Made by a program: the position numbers and the translations under genes
The notes under the pieces: model-generated
What the model was told of the DNA's origin: nothing
What the model saw: the letters and a program-made list of their open reading frames with translations, nothing else
The model's database searches: none
NCBI GenBank assembly: GCA_963840255.1
Contig: CAWIYB010000003.1
Location: 193,314-257,313 of the forward strand
From: an uncultured Chloroflexia bacterium
GTDB lineage: Bacteria; Chloroflexota; Anaerolineae; Anaerolineales; UBA4823
DNA length: 64,000 nucleotides
Direction: 5' to 3'
In this document: positions 27,330-30,874 of the stretch, one piece after another
How the letters are laid out: the number at the start of each line of letters is the position of its first letter
How positions within the stretch are numbered: the first letter of the stretch is position 1

Positions 27330-28484
27330 TCATTCGCCTTTATAGATACGCGGCACGCGGGTGTTGATATTGGTCAGGATTTCGTATGGGATGGTACCAG
27401 CCCAGCTCGCCAAATCTTCGCAGGTGATCGACTCAGTACCCGATTCTCCGATCAGGATGACCTCGTCGTCGTTATAACCGCTATCCCACTCAATATTGAT
27501 CACGATCTGGTCCATGGATATGCGCCCAACCACCGGGTATTTTTTACCGCGCAGGAGCACGCTGGCTTTATGCGACATGCTGCGGAAGTAGCCGTCACCA
27601 TAACCCACCGGGGCAGTGACCGCCCGCACCATATGATCGGATTGCCAGGTGGAACCATATCCCACCGGGTGCCCAGGCAGGATGACTTTGAAATACACCA
27701 CGCGGCTTTTCCAGCTGAGAGCAGGGCGGACGATGACTGAATGCGGGATCTCAAAGGACGGATAAACTCCATAAAGGAGCAGCCCGGGTCGGACGAGATC
27801 AAATTTGGCTTCGGGTAGCTGAAGGATGGCGGGGGAGTTCGACATATGCCGCAGAGGTGGGAGCGGCAAGCTGTGCTTTTCAAAGTAAAAAAGCACTTCC
27901 TGGAAGCGATCAAGCTGGACACGAGCATCATGCAGGTCGGGCTGGTCGGCATTGGCAAAATGCGAATAGATGCCTTCCAGGTTGATCGATCTACATCTGA
28001 GGGCAGTCTCCAGGAAATCGTGGGCGTGGTAATAATGTACCCCGATGCGCTCCATGCCTGTGTCTATCTTCAGGTGAACTTTAGCCTTAACTCCCATTTG
28101 GGCAGCTATATCATCCACCTGGGAGAGTTTATCGATGGAGGAGGCGGTGATGGTCAGGTCATATTTCAGGAAACCCGGCACCTGGTTGCCCAGGATGCCT
28201 CCCAAGACCAGGATGGGGATACGGATGCCATTTTCACGCAGCAGGATGCCCTCTTCCAAGACGGCCACACCGATGTAATCGGCTCCAAGCGATTCCATCA
28301 GCTGCGCCACGCGCAATAGTCCATGACCATAAGCGTTTGCTTTAAGGATGGGCATCACCCTGGCAGGAGAGACGTGCTGGCGGATGGCGGTGAAGTTGTC
28401 TGAAAGGCGGGTTAAGTCCACCTCCACCAGGGTTGGGCGGACGATGTCATTGGAGCTGATGGTGGGGTCATTGATGGATGGCAT
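27330..28484 (-). CDS. alr: alanine racemase
   Basis: VMPILKANAYGHGL (PLP-binding Lys motif), GIRIPILVLGG and YGDGY. Start is uncertain: ATG at 28484 versus TTG at 28541. Confidence 0.88.
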   Translation of the reverse strand: MPSINDPTISSNDIVRPTLVEVDLTRLSDNFTAIRQHVSPARVMPILKANAYGHGLLRVAQLMESLGADYIGVAVLEEGILLRENGIRIPILVLGGILGNQVPGFLKYDLTITASSIDKLSQVDDIAAQMGVKAKVHLKIDTGMERIGVHYYHAHDFLETALRCRSINLEGIYSHFANADQPDLHDARVQLDRFQEVLFYFEKHSLPLPPLRHMSNSPAILQLPEAKFDLVRPGLLLYGVYPSFEIPHSVIVRPALSWKSRVVYFKVILPGHPVGYGSTWQSDHMVRAVTAPVGYGDGYFRSMSHKASVLLRGKKYPVVGRISMDQIVINIEWDSGYNDDEVILIGESGTESITCEDLASWAGTIPYEILTNINTRVPRIYKGE

Positions 28485-28596
28485 TGGAACAAAATCCAGA
28501 GTCGAAGGATCTCCTTCACTCAATCTAAAGTATACCAACAAATCGACAGCGAGCAGATGACGGGCAACTGCTCGCTGTATCTATATTACCAATTTA

Positions 28597-29436
28597 CTAC
28601 GGGGTCGGGGTTATCGGGTTGGGGGTAACCGGGTTGAGAATTCCTTCGATGATCTTTTGGAAGGCATCAAAAGGCTGCGCGCCAGTAACACCCTGACCAT
28701 TGACGGCAAATGTGGGTGTGGATTGAACACCCAATTCACGTGCCCTGCTGGTCTGGTCCTGGACGAACTGGGTGTATTTGCCTGAGTCAAGGCAGGTGTT
28801 GAAAGCTTTGGTATCCAATCCCATGGCAACTGCAAACCCTTTCAGGTTGTCTTTGCTGAATGACCCCTGGTTCTCACCATTTTGGTGGGAGAAAAGATAA
28901 TCGTGGTATTCCCAGAAGGCATCCTGATCTCCGGCACACTCAGCTGCTTCAGCTGACCACACCGATTCATCACCCAGGAAGGCGAAGTTAAAATACCCAA
29001 GACGTACCTTGCCTGTATCTACGTATGTTGTTTGTATCTGACGACCCGCGTCAGCGGCGAAACGCCCGCAGTAGGGTCACTGATAGTCGCTAAATTCGAT
29101 AATGGTGACCTTGGCGTTGGGGTCGCCCTCGAAGTGGGTGGTGTTGCTCACCAGGTAAGCCATCAGCTCATCACTGGTGGTAATGGCTGCCACGGTTGGG
29201 TTGACTGTGGGTGTTGGGCCGGAAGCCACGTCAGCCTGAAGTGTAGCCGCTGAGGTTGCCACGGGCGTAGTCACAGCTGCGACTTCTCCGGTGGGGTCAG
29301 CATTCTTATTCAATAACGGGCGACCAAGATAGCCTACCAATAACCCAACCACCAGCATGATCACAGCCAGAGCTGGAGTCCACCATGACTGGATGATTAC
29401 GGTCAGGGCAGGCTTTTGTCCTTGAGGTTGGTCCAT
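28597..29436 (-). CDS. DsbA/BdbD-like thiol:disulfide oxidoreductase with an in-frame TGA (29077-29079) at the first position of the CxxC motif
   Basis: Track ORFs 29077..29436 and 28597..28962 share a frame. Hand translation across the gap has no other stop codon and reads VTIIEFSDYQ-U-PYCGRFAADAGRQIQTTYVDTGKVRLGYFNFAFLGDESVWSAEAAECAG... An N-terminal TM anchor and a PT tail are present. Confidence 0.7.
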
Positions 29437-29774
29437 GATTAATTTTGCTCCTTTTACTAGAATGCGGTCAATTTTATCATATCCCTAGAGGGATTCACGC
29501 CAGGAGGGAGGTGATGAGGAATGTTCCGGGCTGATAAGAAACAGGGCGTTTATTCTCCGCGAATGGCTGGATATCGATTCGTTCGGTAAAAAAAACGAAG
29601 AGGAACGACCCGATTTTTCAAGATCACAGCATGGAATTGTTTCAACAAAAAAATAATTCGGAACAATTCGGGGGAACCAGGAGAAGGTAATCATACGGAG
29701 AAGACCACTCGGTATCCGGGGCAAGCCATACCAAGCCAGAAGGAGCAGGCTCGGCTATAAGACCAGGTAGATTG

Positions 29775-29822
29775 GGTAATTAGGTAATTAGGTAATTAGG
29801 TAATTAGGTAATTAGGTAATTG
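29775..29822. repeat. tandem 8-mer GGTAATTA, about 6 copies
   Basis: Read directly from the sequence. The last copy is GGTAATTG. Confidence 0.95.
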
Positions 29823-29862
29823 GTACATTAGAGTAGGGGTGAGCATCTATACCGTGGAAGAT

Positions 29863-29930
29863 CATTATCGGTATAGAAATGCATATCGGTATAGAATCAT
29901 ATCGGTCAGAGATCATATCGGTATAGATCA
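29863..29930. repeat. about four tandem 16-nt units of the type CATATCGGTATAGAAT
   Basis: cattATCGGTATAGAaatg / catATCGGTATAGAat / catATCGGTcAGAgat / catATCGGTATAGAt. Confidence 0.85.
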
Positions 29931-30036
29931 ACCGATACAGGAGGGCACTTACCGATACAGGAGGGCACTGACCGATACAGGAGAGCACTGACCGATACAG
30001 GAGAGCACTGACCAGATACAGAAGGAGAGCACTTCC
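29931..30036. repeat. four exact-length 20-nt tandem units ACCGATACAGGAG(G/A)GCACT(T/G) plus one degenerate unit
   Basis: Units lie at 29931, 29951, 29971 and 29991, with a degenerate copy at 30011-30036. The CCGATAC core is the reverse complement of the upstream ATCGG repeat core. Confidence 0.9.
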
Positions 30037-30400
30037 TTACGGTAAAGACCATACTGGTATACGACTGCCTTTTACGGATACAACCCAATCGGTACAGAAG
30101 ACCACTGATTGATGTCTGTAGATTGGCACCTATACCGGTAAAGACCATACGGGTATACGGACATTACTTATCTGAAATGATAAAATGAAGATGTCCTAAC
30201 ATCGGTACAGACCAACCGATGTGGAAGAATAAGCACTTCCATTATAGCACATAAGTTCTAATCTCACAAGAGGGTTAAGAAGATTTAAGGAAAGCGTAGA
30301 GTAACGGGTAGCGATCAGAATATGATCCCTTCGATGTATGACCAACTGGTTTTACCTGATTTATGCTATATTTAGCATCATTGTCGCAGCTGGCATCACC

Positions 30401-30422
30401 GAGACGCCCGGTGGGGCGTCTC
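30401..30422. repeat. REP-like palindrome, family A
   Basis: GAGACGCCC-ggtg-GGGCGTCTC. Confidence 0.8.
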
Positions 30423-30442
30423 TACCAGGAGGAATTCACCTT

Positions 30443-30874
30443 GTGACCATTTCTCCTCCAAAATATAAGAATAAATATCGAATTGCGTCCAGCAGGTTGA
30501 AGGGTTGGGATTACACTGCTGTGGGGTGGTATTTCATTACGATTTGTAACCGCGCCCGGATTCCGTTTTTTGGGGAGATTGAAGATGGTGATGTTCGTCG
30601 ATCACCCCTGGGTAAGATTGCTCTACAGTGCTGGATAGAGATACCCAACCATTTTTCGCAGGCTTCATTAGATGAATTTATCATCATGCCCAATCATGTG
30701 CACGGTATCATTGTGATCGATGTACCCGAAATTCGTGAGGGTACGGTAGAGACGCAGCATGCTGCGTCTCTACCCAACGAGCTGGGAGACCATTCCCTCG
30801 TGCCTCGGGACAGGTTAGGCAGCAATGCGATCACGACCAGCAGCAGCGGGAGATGGTATCAAGGTGGAAACTGA
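30443..30874 (+). mobile_element. REP-associated tyrosine transposase (RAYT / IS200-like HUH) gene, apparently truncated at the C-terminus
   Basis: KYKNKYRIASSRLKGWDYTAVGWYFITICNRARIPFFGEI...FIIMPNHVHGIIVI (HUH motif). No C-terminal catalytic-Tyr helix is visible before the stop codon. The GTG at 30443 follows AGGAGG; the track start at 30338 reads through a REP hairpin. Confidence 0.6.
30746..30773. repeat. REP-like palindrome, family A, inside the RAYT coding sequence
   Basis: A perfect 28-nt palindrome GTAGAGACGCAGCATGCTGCGTCTCTAC, which encodes VETQHAASL. Confidence 0.9.

What the first reader, a model, noticed from the sequence alone, without database searches (positions are those of the whole stretch)
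28597..29436. DsbA-like oxidoreductase with TGA replacing the first Cys of CxxC (a UxxC selenoprotein candidate)
- The two track ORFs are in one frame, and my translation across the gap has no other stop codon.
- The junction reads IIEFSDYQ-TGA-PYCGRF. DsbA/BdbD-type proteins have EFxDYQCPYC at this position.
- A GC-rich stem-loop can form 7 nt after the UGA (GCGGGCG-UUU-CGCCGC), nested inside ACCC...GGGU.
- Together with the two HdrA cases, this makes three independent TGA-for-Cys substitutions at redox-active sites in 12 kb.
Basis: partly seen in the sequence, partly recalled or inferred. Interest (0 to 1): 0.6.

Follow-up and report, generated by a model that had tools for sequence, protein, structure and literature searches.

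The report
Selenocysteine DsbA-like oxidoreductase gene
The two ORFs are one gene for a membrane-anchored disulfide-exchange enzyme whose first active-site cysteine is almost certainly selenocysteine encoded by UGA; the call is sound, but this kind of bacterial selenoprotein is already known.

Summary
Confirmed: window 28597-29436 (minus strand) is one 279-codon frame. Its only internal stop is TGA at 29077-29079, exactly where homologues carry the first Cys of CPYC/CPFC.

- **Fold.** The product is a membrane-anchored DsbA/BdbD-type thioredoxin-fold protein (Pfam 1e-39; model matches BdbD, TM-score 0.85 normalised to BdbD's length).
- **Machinery.** The genome has SelA, SelB, SelD and one tRNA-Sec, and uses TGA as an ordinary stop.
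- **Conservation.** The same TGA is present in 33 other DsbA-like genes of 29 other genomes of the order. dN/dS after the TGA is 0.06-0.12.
- **SECIS.** The conserved element is a 6-bp hairpin, CUGACG-CGGGU-CGUCAG (29038-29054). It starts 22 nt after the UGA, is paired in 34/34 sequences with three covarying pairs, and has an invariant loop G.
- **Novelty.** Low. UxxC DsbA-like and DsbG-like selenoproteins have been described since 2004-2005. The protein scores just under the cut-off of NCBIfam NF041057 and has no lipobox. This scan has already reported look-alike genes in other Anaerolineae genomes.

A second Sec-DsbA gene, fused to a cyclophilin, lies elsewhere in the genome.

The parts
28597..29436 (-). 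Complete selenoprotein gene: 279 codons (ATG 29434-29436, Sec-UGA at codon 120, stop TAG 28597-28599)
   Evidence: One frame with a single internal TGA. Full-length single-gene homologues of 253-313 aa. dN/dS of 0.06-0.12 for the 148 codons after the TGA.
29448..29452 (-). Shine-Dalgarno-like AGGAG, 11 nt before the ATG
   Evidence: Read from the sequence. Inference only.
29326..29388 (-). N-terminal transmembrane anchor (about residues 17-37, WWTPALAVIMLVVGLLVGYLG). There is no lipobox Cys.
   Evidence: Hydrophobic stretch in the translation. Modelled as a helix at residues 19-37. Conserved in homologues, several of which have a Lys/Arg-rich N-terminus before it.
29203..29307 (-). Pro/Thr/Ala-rich flexible linker (residues 44-78)
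   Evidence: pLDDT below 50 for residues 50-70. Poorly conserved in alignment A2.
28645..29145 (-). DsbA/BdbD-type thioredoxin-fold domain (residues 98-264)
   Evidence: PF13462 at 1.1e-39 covering positions 3-164 of 165; PF01323 at 5e-19. PDB sequence hits to C. diphtheriae DsbA and B. subtilis BdbD at about 1e-19. Fold match to BdbD 3eu4 with TM-score 0.85 normalised to BdbD's length (0.57 to the 279-residue query) and rmsd 2.0 A.
29068..29079 (-). Active-site U-P-Y-C motif. The Sec codon UGA is at 29077-29079.
   Evidence: The position aligns with TGC/TGT of CPYC/CPFC in Cys-type homologues. It sits between strand 110-116 and helix 123-128 of the model.
29038..29054 (-). SECIS hairpin CUGACG-CGGGU-CGUCAG. 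The stem starts 22 nt after the UGA and the apical loop 28 nt after it.
   Evidence: 100% paired in 34 Sec-type sequences. Three of six pairs covary (C-G/A-U/U-A; U-A/C-G/A-U; G-C/A-U/G-U). None of 500 shuffles reaches the covariation score, and slid controls collapse to 21-55% pairing. RNAalifold recovers it. The second loop base is G in 34/34, followed by G or U.
28714..28719 (-). Thr240-Pro241, the cis-proline loop of the thioredoxin fold (STPTF)
   Evidence: S239, T240 and P241 are invariant in alignment A2. It aligns with GTPAF of C. diphtheriae DsbA.
28547..28577 (-). Terminator-like hairpin (10-bp stem CAGCGAGCAG/CUGCUCGCUG) followed by UCGAUUUGUUGG, between this gene and alr
   Evidence: MFE -22 kcal/mol, z = -3.87, 0 of 200 shuffles fold as well. 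The consensus terminator scan missed it because the loop exceeds 8 nt. Function is inferred.

Best explanation
Window 28597-29436 (minus strand) is a single gene for a 279-residue, membrane-anchored thiol-disulfide oxidoreductase of the Gram-positive DsbA/BdbD type. Its catalytic domain probably faces outward. The nucleophilic first residue of the CxxC motif is selenocysteine (U120-P-Y-C123).

**Proposed recoding mechanism.**
- Codon 120 is UGA.
- A short hairpin (6-bp stem, 5-nt loop CGGGU) lies inside the coding sequence, 22 nt downstream.
- This hairpin acts as the bacterial SECIS. It recruits SelB-GTP-Sec-tRNA(Sec) to the ribosome paused at the UGA, so that Sec is inserted instead of termination.
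- SelD makes selenophosphate and SelA converts Ser-tRNA(Sec) to Sec-tRNA(Sec).

**Proposed protein function.**
- The mature protein is tethered by an N-terminal transmembrane helix and a Pro/Thr-rich linker.
- It exchanges a selenenylsulfide (Se-S) with substrate cysteines.
- The only candidate recycling partner found in the genome is a thioredoxin-VKOR fusion protein. No DsbB was found.

**Shown here.** Frame continuity; position of the UGA; DsbA fold; presence of the Sec machinery; conservation of the UGA; purifying selection downstream; covariation in the hairpin.

**Inferred.** Actual Sec insertion; membrane topology; the redox direction (oxidase versus reductase or isomerase); the VKOR partnership.
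For: 1. **Position of the TGA.** A single in-frame TGA sits exactly at the first Cys of CPYC.
2. **Fold.** Pfam Thioredoxin_4 1.1e-39 and DSBA 5e-19. PDB sequence matches to DsbA/BdbD at about 1e-19. AlphaFold model with mean pLDDT 84.6 matches BdbD 3eu4 (TM-score 0.85 normalised to BdbD's length, rmsd 2.0 A).
3. **Sec machinery in the same genome.** SelA 438.8 bits; SelB 325.7 bits, over its 242 cut-off; SelD 360.9 bits, itself with one in-frame TGA; one tRNA-Sec(UCA).
4. **TGA is a normal stop here.** 381 of 1090 long frames end in TGA. Several Sec-type homologues end in TGA. No tRNA other than tRNA-Sec has a UCA anticodon.
5. **Conservation.** The same codon is TGA in all 7 genomes of the genus, and in 34 DsbA-like genes of 30 genomes in total. 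Each has about 150 open codons after it.
6. **Selection.** dN/dS for the 148 codons after the TGA is 0.06-0.12 against genus members.
7. **Hairpin.** The hairpin at 29038-29054 is 100% paired with 3 covarying pairs, including changes that alter the encoded amino acids on both arms (Ala/Gln to Lys/Leu in L041).
8. **Fit to the published bacterial SECIS consensus** (PMC13188914). Stem 6-7 bp; loop 3-5 nt; G in the first two loop positions followed by G or U; 28 nt from the UGA to the loop.
9. **Machinery in relatives.** 29 of the 30 genomes with the TGA form have SelA.
Against: - There is no direct evidence of selenium incorporation.
- In this genus the 17-nt hairpin alone is only -6.0 kcal/mol. 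That is weaker than the -7.5 kcal/mol used in the published consensus model. It reaches -8.3 with the small upstream helix, and the median over all 34 sequences is -8.45.
- In the single-sequence MFE fold, a competing structure wins.
- Three of the six stem pairs never vary, so they carry no information.
- No Rfam family matched.
- SelA is common in this order (155 of 201 genomes), so its co-occurrence with the TGA form discriminates weakly.
Confidence: 0.93

Rival explanations
1. The TGA is a nonsense mutation or an assembly error, so the gene is a pseudogene or the codon is really TGC/TGT.
For: Table-11 ORF calling splits the frame. Raw reads could not be checked.
Against: - The identical TGA and flanks occur in an independent assembly of a 93%-identical orthologue.
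- The same TGA is present in 32 further genes across several families of the order.
- The downstream half is under strong purifying selection (dN/dS 0.06-0.12).
Confidence: 0.02
2. The UGA is decoded, but not as selenocysteine. It would be read as Trp, Gly or Cys, either through a variant genetic code or by near-cognate suppression. Public gene calls that show W at this site imply this reading.
For: - The closest database proteins read YQWPYC (P0002-P0014).
- The base after the UGA is always C, a leaky stop context.
Against: - TGA ends 35% of long frames in this genome.
- TGA ends several of the homologous genes themselves.
- The only tRNA with anticodon UCA is tRNA-Sec.
- The recoded position is the catalytic Cys. 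Trp or Gly there would inactivate a CxxC enzyme.
- A covarying hairpin at SECIS distance has no role in simple read-through.
Confidence: 0.04
3. These are two separate genes: a small membrane protein ending at the TGA, and an independently initiated C-terminal thioredoxin-like fragment.
For: A GTG at 28962 opens a 121-aa ORF in the same frame.
Against: - The 38 codons between the TGA and that GTG are highly conserved as protein. They include the second active-site Cys and helix alpha-1.
- Cys-type homologues are single genes of 253-313 aa.
- A fragment starting at 28962 would lack strand beta-1, the CxxC motif and helix alpha-1 of the fold.
Confidence: 0.01

Closest known systems
'DsbG-like' selenoprotein family = NCBIfam NF041057, Rcas_1661 family thioredoxin-like (seleno)lipoprotein (Table in PMC13188914, where it is cited to that review's reference 12)
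   Same: Best NCBIfam hit, matched almost end to end (178.7 bits, profile positions 29-245 of 247). It shares the UxxC active site, the DsbA-like thioredoxin fold, the mixed Sec/Cys membership and the Chloroflexota context.
   Different: The score is below the curated 190-bit cut-off, and so are three other clade members tested (one Sec-type, two Cys-type; 162-173 bits). This protein has an uncleaved transmembrane anchor and no lipobox cysteine, so it is not a lipoprotein.
'DsbA-like protein' selenoprotein family (UxxC; PF01323/COG2761), Zhang, Fomenko and Gladyshev 2005, Sargasso Sea (PMC1088965); 'DsbA-like protein form 1' in PMC13188914
   Same: It shares the PF01323 DSBA domain, the UxxC motif with Sec as the first residue, and an in-frame bacterial SECIS with a loop G.
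   Different: That family was assigned to COG2761 (FrnE type). Here the FrnE structures match only weakly and partially (E = 2.6e-7, residues 184-274). The best models are PF13462 and BdbD-type, with a membrane anchor.
BdbD of Bacillus subtilis (PDB 3eu3/3eu4) and DsbA/TsdA of Corynebacterium diphtheriae (4pwo/4pwp, 7unn)
   Same: Closest solved structures by sequence (about 1e-19) and by fold (TM-score to target 0.85 and 0.68, rmsd 2.0-2.1 A). They share the thioredoxin fold with a helical insertion, a CPxC-type motif and a Thr-cisPro loop. They are extracytoplasmic enzymes of monoderm bacteria.
   Different: Those enzymes use Cys at the nucleophilic position. Sequence identity is only 27-28%. 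BdbD works with the DsbB-type BdbC, whereas this genome has VKOR and no detectable DsbB.
Escherichia coli fdhF SECIS / consensus bacterial SECIS model (bSECISearch; summarised in PMC13188914)
   Same: A hairpin inside the coding sequence just after the UGA. Upper stem of 4-16 bp, apical loop of 3-9 nt, G followed by G or U at the start of the loop, and 16-37 nt from the UGA to the loop. All are met (6-7 bp, 3-5 nt, invariant G, 28 nt).
   Different: The hairpin is very short. In this genus it is -6.0 kcal/mol on its own, below the model's -7.5 kcal/mol criterion. No long lower stem is supported by covariation.

Membership tests
Bacterial selenoprotein gene (SelB/SECIS-dependent UGA recoding) | In-frame UGA at a position occupied by a redox-active Cys in homologues | tested here: met
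   TGA at codon 120 aligns with TGC/TGT of CPYC/CPFC in 11 of the 30 best loci and with TGA in 19.
Bacterial selenoprotein gene (SelB/SECIS-dependent UGA recoding) | Complete Sec machinery in the same genome (SelA, SelB, SelD, tRNA-Sec) | tested here: met
   all are over the curated cut-offs. tRNA-SeC(tca) is at C1:334342-334437.
Bacterial selenoprotein gene (SelB/SECIS-dependent UGA recoding) | [quoted passage not shown] | tested here: met
   Hairpin 29038-29054 has a 6-bp stem, loop CGGGU, and 28 nt between the UGA and the loop. It is paired in 34/34 sequences with 3 covarying pairs. The loop G is invariant.
Bacterial selenoprotein gene (SelB/SECIS-dependent UGA recoding) | SECIS free energy of -7.5 kcal/mol or lower | tested here: inconclusive
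   The hairpin alone is -6.0 kcal/mol in this genus. With the small upstream helix it is -8.3. The median over the 34 homologues is -8.45.
Bacterial selenoprotein gene (SelB/SECIS-dependent UGA recoding) | Protein-coding constraint continues after the UGA | tested here: met
   dN/dS is 0.06-0.12 over the 148 codons after the UGA. About 150 open codons follow the TGA in all 34 genes.
Bacterial selenoprotein gene (SelB/SECIS-dependent UGA recoding) | Selenium actually incorporated at the UGA | not testable with these tools
   This needs 75Se labelling or mass spectrometry.
DsbA/BdbD-type thiol-disulfide oxidoreductase (PF13462 / PF01323) | Thioredoxin fold with an inserted helical domain | tested here: met
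   Pfam profiles are matched end to end. The model matches BdbD, C. diphtheriae DsbA, Wolbachia DsbA1 and S. aureus DsbA with probability 1.00.
DsbA/BdbD-type thiol-disulfide oxidoreductase (PF13462 / PF01323) | CxxC active site at the N-terminus of helix alpha-1, plus a cis-Pro loop | tested here: met
   U120-P-Y-C123 precedes helix 123-128. T240-P241 is invariant. The first Cys is replaced by Sec.
DsbA/BdbD-type thiol-disulfide oxidoreductase (PF13462 / PF01323) | Extracytoplasmic location and a membrane re-oxidant (DsbB/BdbC or VKOR) | tested here: inconclusive
   An N-terminal transmembrane helix is present. A Trx-VKOR fusion is present in the genome and DsbB was not found. Topology and partnership are inferred, not shown.
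NCBIfam NF041057, Rcas_1661 family thioredoxin-like (seleno)lipoprotein ('DsbG-like' selenoprotein) | Score at or above the curated cut-off (190 bits) | tested here: not met
   178.7 bits. Three other clade members tested (one Sec-type, two Cys-type) score 162-173 bits.
NCBIfam NF041057, Rcas_1661 family thioredoxin-like (seleno)lipoprotein ('DsbG-like' selenoprotein) | Lipoprotein signal peptide with a lipobox Cys | tested here: not met
   There is no Cys in residues 1-119. The N-terminus is a transmembrane anchor.
'DsbA-like protein form 1' selenoprotein (PF01323/COG2761, UxxC) | PF01323 domain with a UxxC motif | tested here: met
   PF01323 at 69.2 bits, over the 25.6 cut-off. The motif is UPYC.
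'DsbA-like protein form 1' selenoprotein (PF01323/COG2761, UxxC) | Membership of the COG2761 / FrnE-type subfamily | tested here: inconclusive
   No COG library is available. FrnE structures match only weakly (E = 2.6e-7, partial), which suggests a different DsbA subfamily.

The most novel reading that the evidence does not exclude
Selenocysteine may be the ancestral state of this membrane-anchored DsbA clade in Anaerolineales, with Cys forms arising repeatedly.
- At least 5 Sec/Cys switches are needed on the tree.
- One Cys form, L030, still carries the SECIS hairpin as a fossil.
- The in-frame SECIS fixes the peptide motif A-[D/G]-A-G-R-Q in helix alpha-1.

Functionally, the Se-S active site might make these enzymes extracytoplasmic reductases or isomerases (or handlers of metals and metalloids, as ScsC-like proteins are) rather than DsbA-type oxidases.
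Probability: 0.25. Interest if true: 0.4.

Novelty: new member of a known kind. Interest (0 to 1): 0.22.

Why it matters
The main value is for annotation. Standard gene callers split this gene in two or, as the public protein collection shows, read the UGA as Trp. Either way, the active-site residue of an abundant Anaerolineales cell-envelope redox enzyme is recorded wrongly.

The 34-sequence set also gives a compact SECIS with covariation support, and a peptide signature (FA-x-[D/G]-AGRQ). Both could be used to find further members.

Biologically it adds to the picture of a large, Sec-rich redox proteome in anaerobic Chloroflexota: HdrA, SelD and two DsbA-like proteins in this genome alone. 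It does not reveal a new mechanism.

Tried and rejected
Rejected: 70.6% paired against 70.0% in shuffles, no excess covariation, and the single-sequence fold has z = -0.55.
- **Rfam scan of 28400-29700.** Only chance-level hits. Rfam has no model that caught this SECIS.
- **Consensus promoter/terminator scan.** Nothing convincing. The strong post-stop hairpin was found only by folding.
- **Synteny as a functional clue.** The alr neighbour is conserved only within the genus and one sister genus. It is uninformative.
- **Literature search for measured redox potentials of Sec-DsbA.** Nothing specific in the papers opened. The statement that Se-S sites are more reducing and faster in exchange rests on my general knowledge of seleno-glutaredoxin and thioredoxin studies and is marked as inference.
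- **Variant genetic code (TGA = Trp/Gly).** Rejected from stop-codon usage and the tRNA set.
- **Direction of Sec/Cys evolution.** Not settled. The tree is midpoint-rooted, and I picked rows L042-L061 from matches flagged with an in-frame TGA, so the sample is biased.

Full report
**1. Observation.**

On the minus strand, the ORFs 29077..29436 and 28597..28962 share one frame. Translating 28597-29436 gives 279 codons. The only internal stop is TGA at 29077-29079 (codon 120), and the frame ends at TAG 28597-28599.

**2. What the protein is.**

- **Domain hits.** With Cys placed at the TGA, the protein matches Pfam Thioredoxin_4 (PF13462, 1.1e-39, profile positions 3-164 of 165) and DSBA (PF01323, 5e-19).
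- **Solved structures.** The closest by sequence are DsbA/TsdA of Corynebacterium diphtheriae and BdbD of Bacillus subtilis, at about 1e-19.
- **Model.** An AlphaFold model built on 35 homologues has mean pLDDT 84.6. It shows:
  - an N-terminal helix at residues 19-37, which is the hydrophobic stretch WWTPALAVIMLVVGLLVGYLG;
  - a disordered Pro/Thr/Ala-rich linker;
  - a compact domain from about residue 80.
- **Fold match.** The domain superposes on BdbD with a TM-score of 0.85 normalised to BdbD's length (0.57 normalised to the 279-residue query) and rmsd 2.0 A.
- **Active site.** Residue 120 lies between strand 110-116 and helix 123-128, the usual CxxC position. Thr240-Pro241, the cis-Pro loop, is invariant.
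- **Anchor.** There is no cysteine before residue 120, so there is no lipobox. I read the protein as membrane-anchored with the domain outside, as in BdbD-type enzymes of monoderm bacteria. The topology is inferred.

**3. Is the UGA selenocysteine?**

- **Machinery.** The genome (4.13 Mb, 5 contigs, 95% complete) encodes:
  - SelA (438.8 bits);
  - SelB (325.7 bits, cut-off 242);
  - SelD (360.9 bits, itself with one in-frame TGA);
  - a single tRNA-Sec with anticodon UCA, which is also the only tRNA with that anticodon.
- **TGA as a stop.** TGA ends 381 of 1090 stop-to-stop frames of at least 400 codons. A variant genetic code is therefore excluded.
- **Conservation.** A six-frame search of 201 genomes of the same order found DsbA-like matches in 193.
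  - Among the 30 best loci, the codon aligned with residue 120 is TGA in 19 and TGC/TGT in 11.
  - All 7 genomes of the genus have TGA, including an independent assembly with a 93%-identical orthologue.
  - I then checked 20 more distant paralogues that had been flagged with an in-frame TGA. Fifteen have the TGA at this position.
  - In total, 34 genes in 30 genomes carry the TGA, and each has about 150 open codons after it. Several of these genes end in TGA, so TGA also terminates in them.
- **Selection.** For the 148 codons after the UGA, dN/dS against genus members is 0.06-0.12 at dS of 0.4-2. The downstream half is therefore translated in this frame.
- **SelA in relatives.** SelA is present in 29 of the 30 genomes with a TGA form. 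The exception is a 640-contig assembly. SelA is common in the order (155 of 201), so this is consistent with the call but only weakly discriminating.

**4. The SECIS.**

It appears in part in the single-sequence MFE fold, but that fold is no better than shuffles (z = -0.55). On an ungapped alignment of the 34 Sec-type sequences, it is paired in 70.6% of cells against 70.0% in shuffles, with no excess covariation.
- **Conserved hairpin.** The element immediately downstream is CUGACG-CGGGU-CGUCAG, window 29038-29054 on the minus strand.
  - It is paired in 100% of 204 cells.
  - Three of the six pairs covary: C-G/A-U/U-A, U-A/C-G/A-U and G-C/A-U/G-U.
  - None of 500 shuffles reaches the observed covariation score.
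  - Sliding the 3' partner by 1-3 columns drops pairing to 21-55%.
  - RNAalifold recovers it independently.
- **Compensatory changes.** Some alter the protein on both arms. In L041, GCU...CAG (Ala...Gln) becomes AAA...CUU (Lys...Leu). The Asp/Gly alternation (GAC/GGC) goes with the synonymous Arg codon CGU/CGC. This is hard to explain without an RNA constraint.
- **Loop.** The second loop base is G in 34/34 sequences, followed by G or U.
- **Fit to the published consensus.** The stem starts 22 nt, and the loop 28 nt, after the UGA. The consensus quoted in PMC13188914 asks for a 4-16 bp stem, a 3-9 nt loop, G in the first two loop positions followed by G or U, and 16-37 nt of spacing. All four are met.
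- **One weak point.** The hairpin alone is -6.0 kcal/mol in this genus, which is weaker than the model's -7.5. With the small upstream helix it is -8.3, and the median over the 34 sequences is -8.45.
- **Contrast with Cys forms.** They lack the hairpin and have different residues there (FFAQVEPE and similar). The exception is L030, which has TGC and the intact hairpin. I read that as a recent Sec-to-Cys replacement.

**5. Likely function.**

The protein is a DsbA/BdbD-type thiol-disulfide exchanger with a Se-S active site.

- The genome has no detectable DsbB.
- It does encode a 351-residue protein with an N-terminal thioredoxin-like CxxC domain and a C-terminal VKOR domain (PF07884, 90 bits). 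This is the only candidate recycling partner found, and the link is an inference.
- From general knowledge of seleno-glutaredoxin and seleno-thioredoxin chemistry (not tested or cited here), a selenenylsulfide is usually more reducing and faster in exchange than the disulfide. A role as reductase or isomerase is therefore as plausible as the classical oxidase role.
- Neighbouring genes give no clue. The pairing with alr is conserved only in the genus and one sister genus. A strong terminator-like hairpin separates the two genes.

**6. Comparison with what is known.**

- UxxC DsbA-like and DsbG-like selenoproteins are established families (PMC1088965; PMC1794560; the table in PMC13188914).
- The best NCBIfam model is NF041057, the Rcas_1661 family thioredoxin-like (seleno)lipoprotein. 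The 2026 review lists it as the 'DsbG-like protein'.
- This protein scores 178.7 bits against a cut-off of 190. Three other clade members tested (one Sec-type, two Cys-type) score 162-173.
- It also lacks the lipobox. It is therefore a close outlier of that family, not a certified member.
- The verdict is a new member of a known kind.
- The scan has already reported look-alike genes in other Anaerolineae genomes.

**7. Evolution.**

A maximum-likelihood tree of 50 domains needs at least 5 Sec/Cys switches, and Cys groups are nested among Sec forms. The root is only a midpoint. I also picked rows L042-L061 from matches that carried an in-frame TGA, so the direction of change is not established.

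**8. Other points seen.**

- The closest proteins in the public collection read YQWPYC. Gene callers translated the TGA as Trp there.
- The genome holds a second Sec-type DsbA-like gene.
  - It encodes a 428-residue lipoprotein with lipobox LSGC.
  - It carries FQ-UGA-PYC and is fused to a cyclophilin PPIase.
  - It has its own hairpin, UUGCUCC-CGUGAU-GGAGCAA, 16 nt after the UGA.
- The genome also holds a Cys-type paralogue with CPAC.

Noticed in passing
Own genome G000:C5 about 651496-652782 (+) = L063:697-1983: A second selenoprotein candidate. It is a 428-residue lipoprotein (lipobox LSGC) with a DsbA-like domain carrying FQ-UGA-PYC (U101), fused to a C-terminal cyclophilin-type PPIase (PF00160, 144 bits). 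A 7-bp hairpin, UUGCUCC-CGUGAU-GGAGCAA, lies 16 nt after the UGA. It scores only 71.7 bits against NF041057.
   Followed up: partly
Own genome G000:C3:533944-534999 (+) = L062:871-1926: A 351-residue protein with a signal peptide, a thioredoxin-like CxxC domain (SSGCTYC) and a C-terminal VKOR domain (CGPVGDC, CIWC). No DsbB was found in the genome. It is the candidate recycling partner for the DsbA-like proteins.
   Followed up: partly
Own genome G000:C3:690881-691813 (-) = L010: SelD itself contains one in-frame TGA, so it is a further likely selenoprotein of this genome.
   Followed up: no
L030 (G041:C95), Cys-type homologue: The active-site codon is TGC, yet the SECIS hairpin CUGACGCGGGGCGUCAG and the AADAGRQ peptide are intact. 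This looks like a 'fossil' SECIS after a recent Sec-to-Cys replacement. The genome still has SelA.
   Followed up: partly
Public protein collection, P0002-P0014: The closest database homologues (65-75% identity, short metagenome contigs) read YQWPYC. The Sec-UGA was translated as Trp by the gene callers, which is a systematic annotation error for this clade.
   Followed up: no
window 28547-28577 (-): A strong hairpin (10-bp stem, -22 kcal/mol, z = -3.87) 20 nt after the stop codon, followed by UCGAUUUGUUGG. It is probably a terminator or attenuator before alr (27330-28541).
   Followed up: partly
window 29780-30240: The stretch upstream of the gene yields only repetitive ORF translations on both strands (for example SVSALLYR repeated). 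A 178-aa ORF at 30338-30874 has no Pfam hit at 1e-5.
   Followed up: no
201 genomes of the same order: SelA is present in 155 of the 201 sampled genomes, including all 17 of the window's family. Selenocysteine use is the rule in this order.
   Followed up: partly
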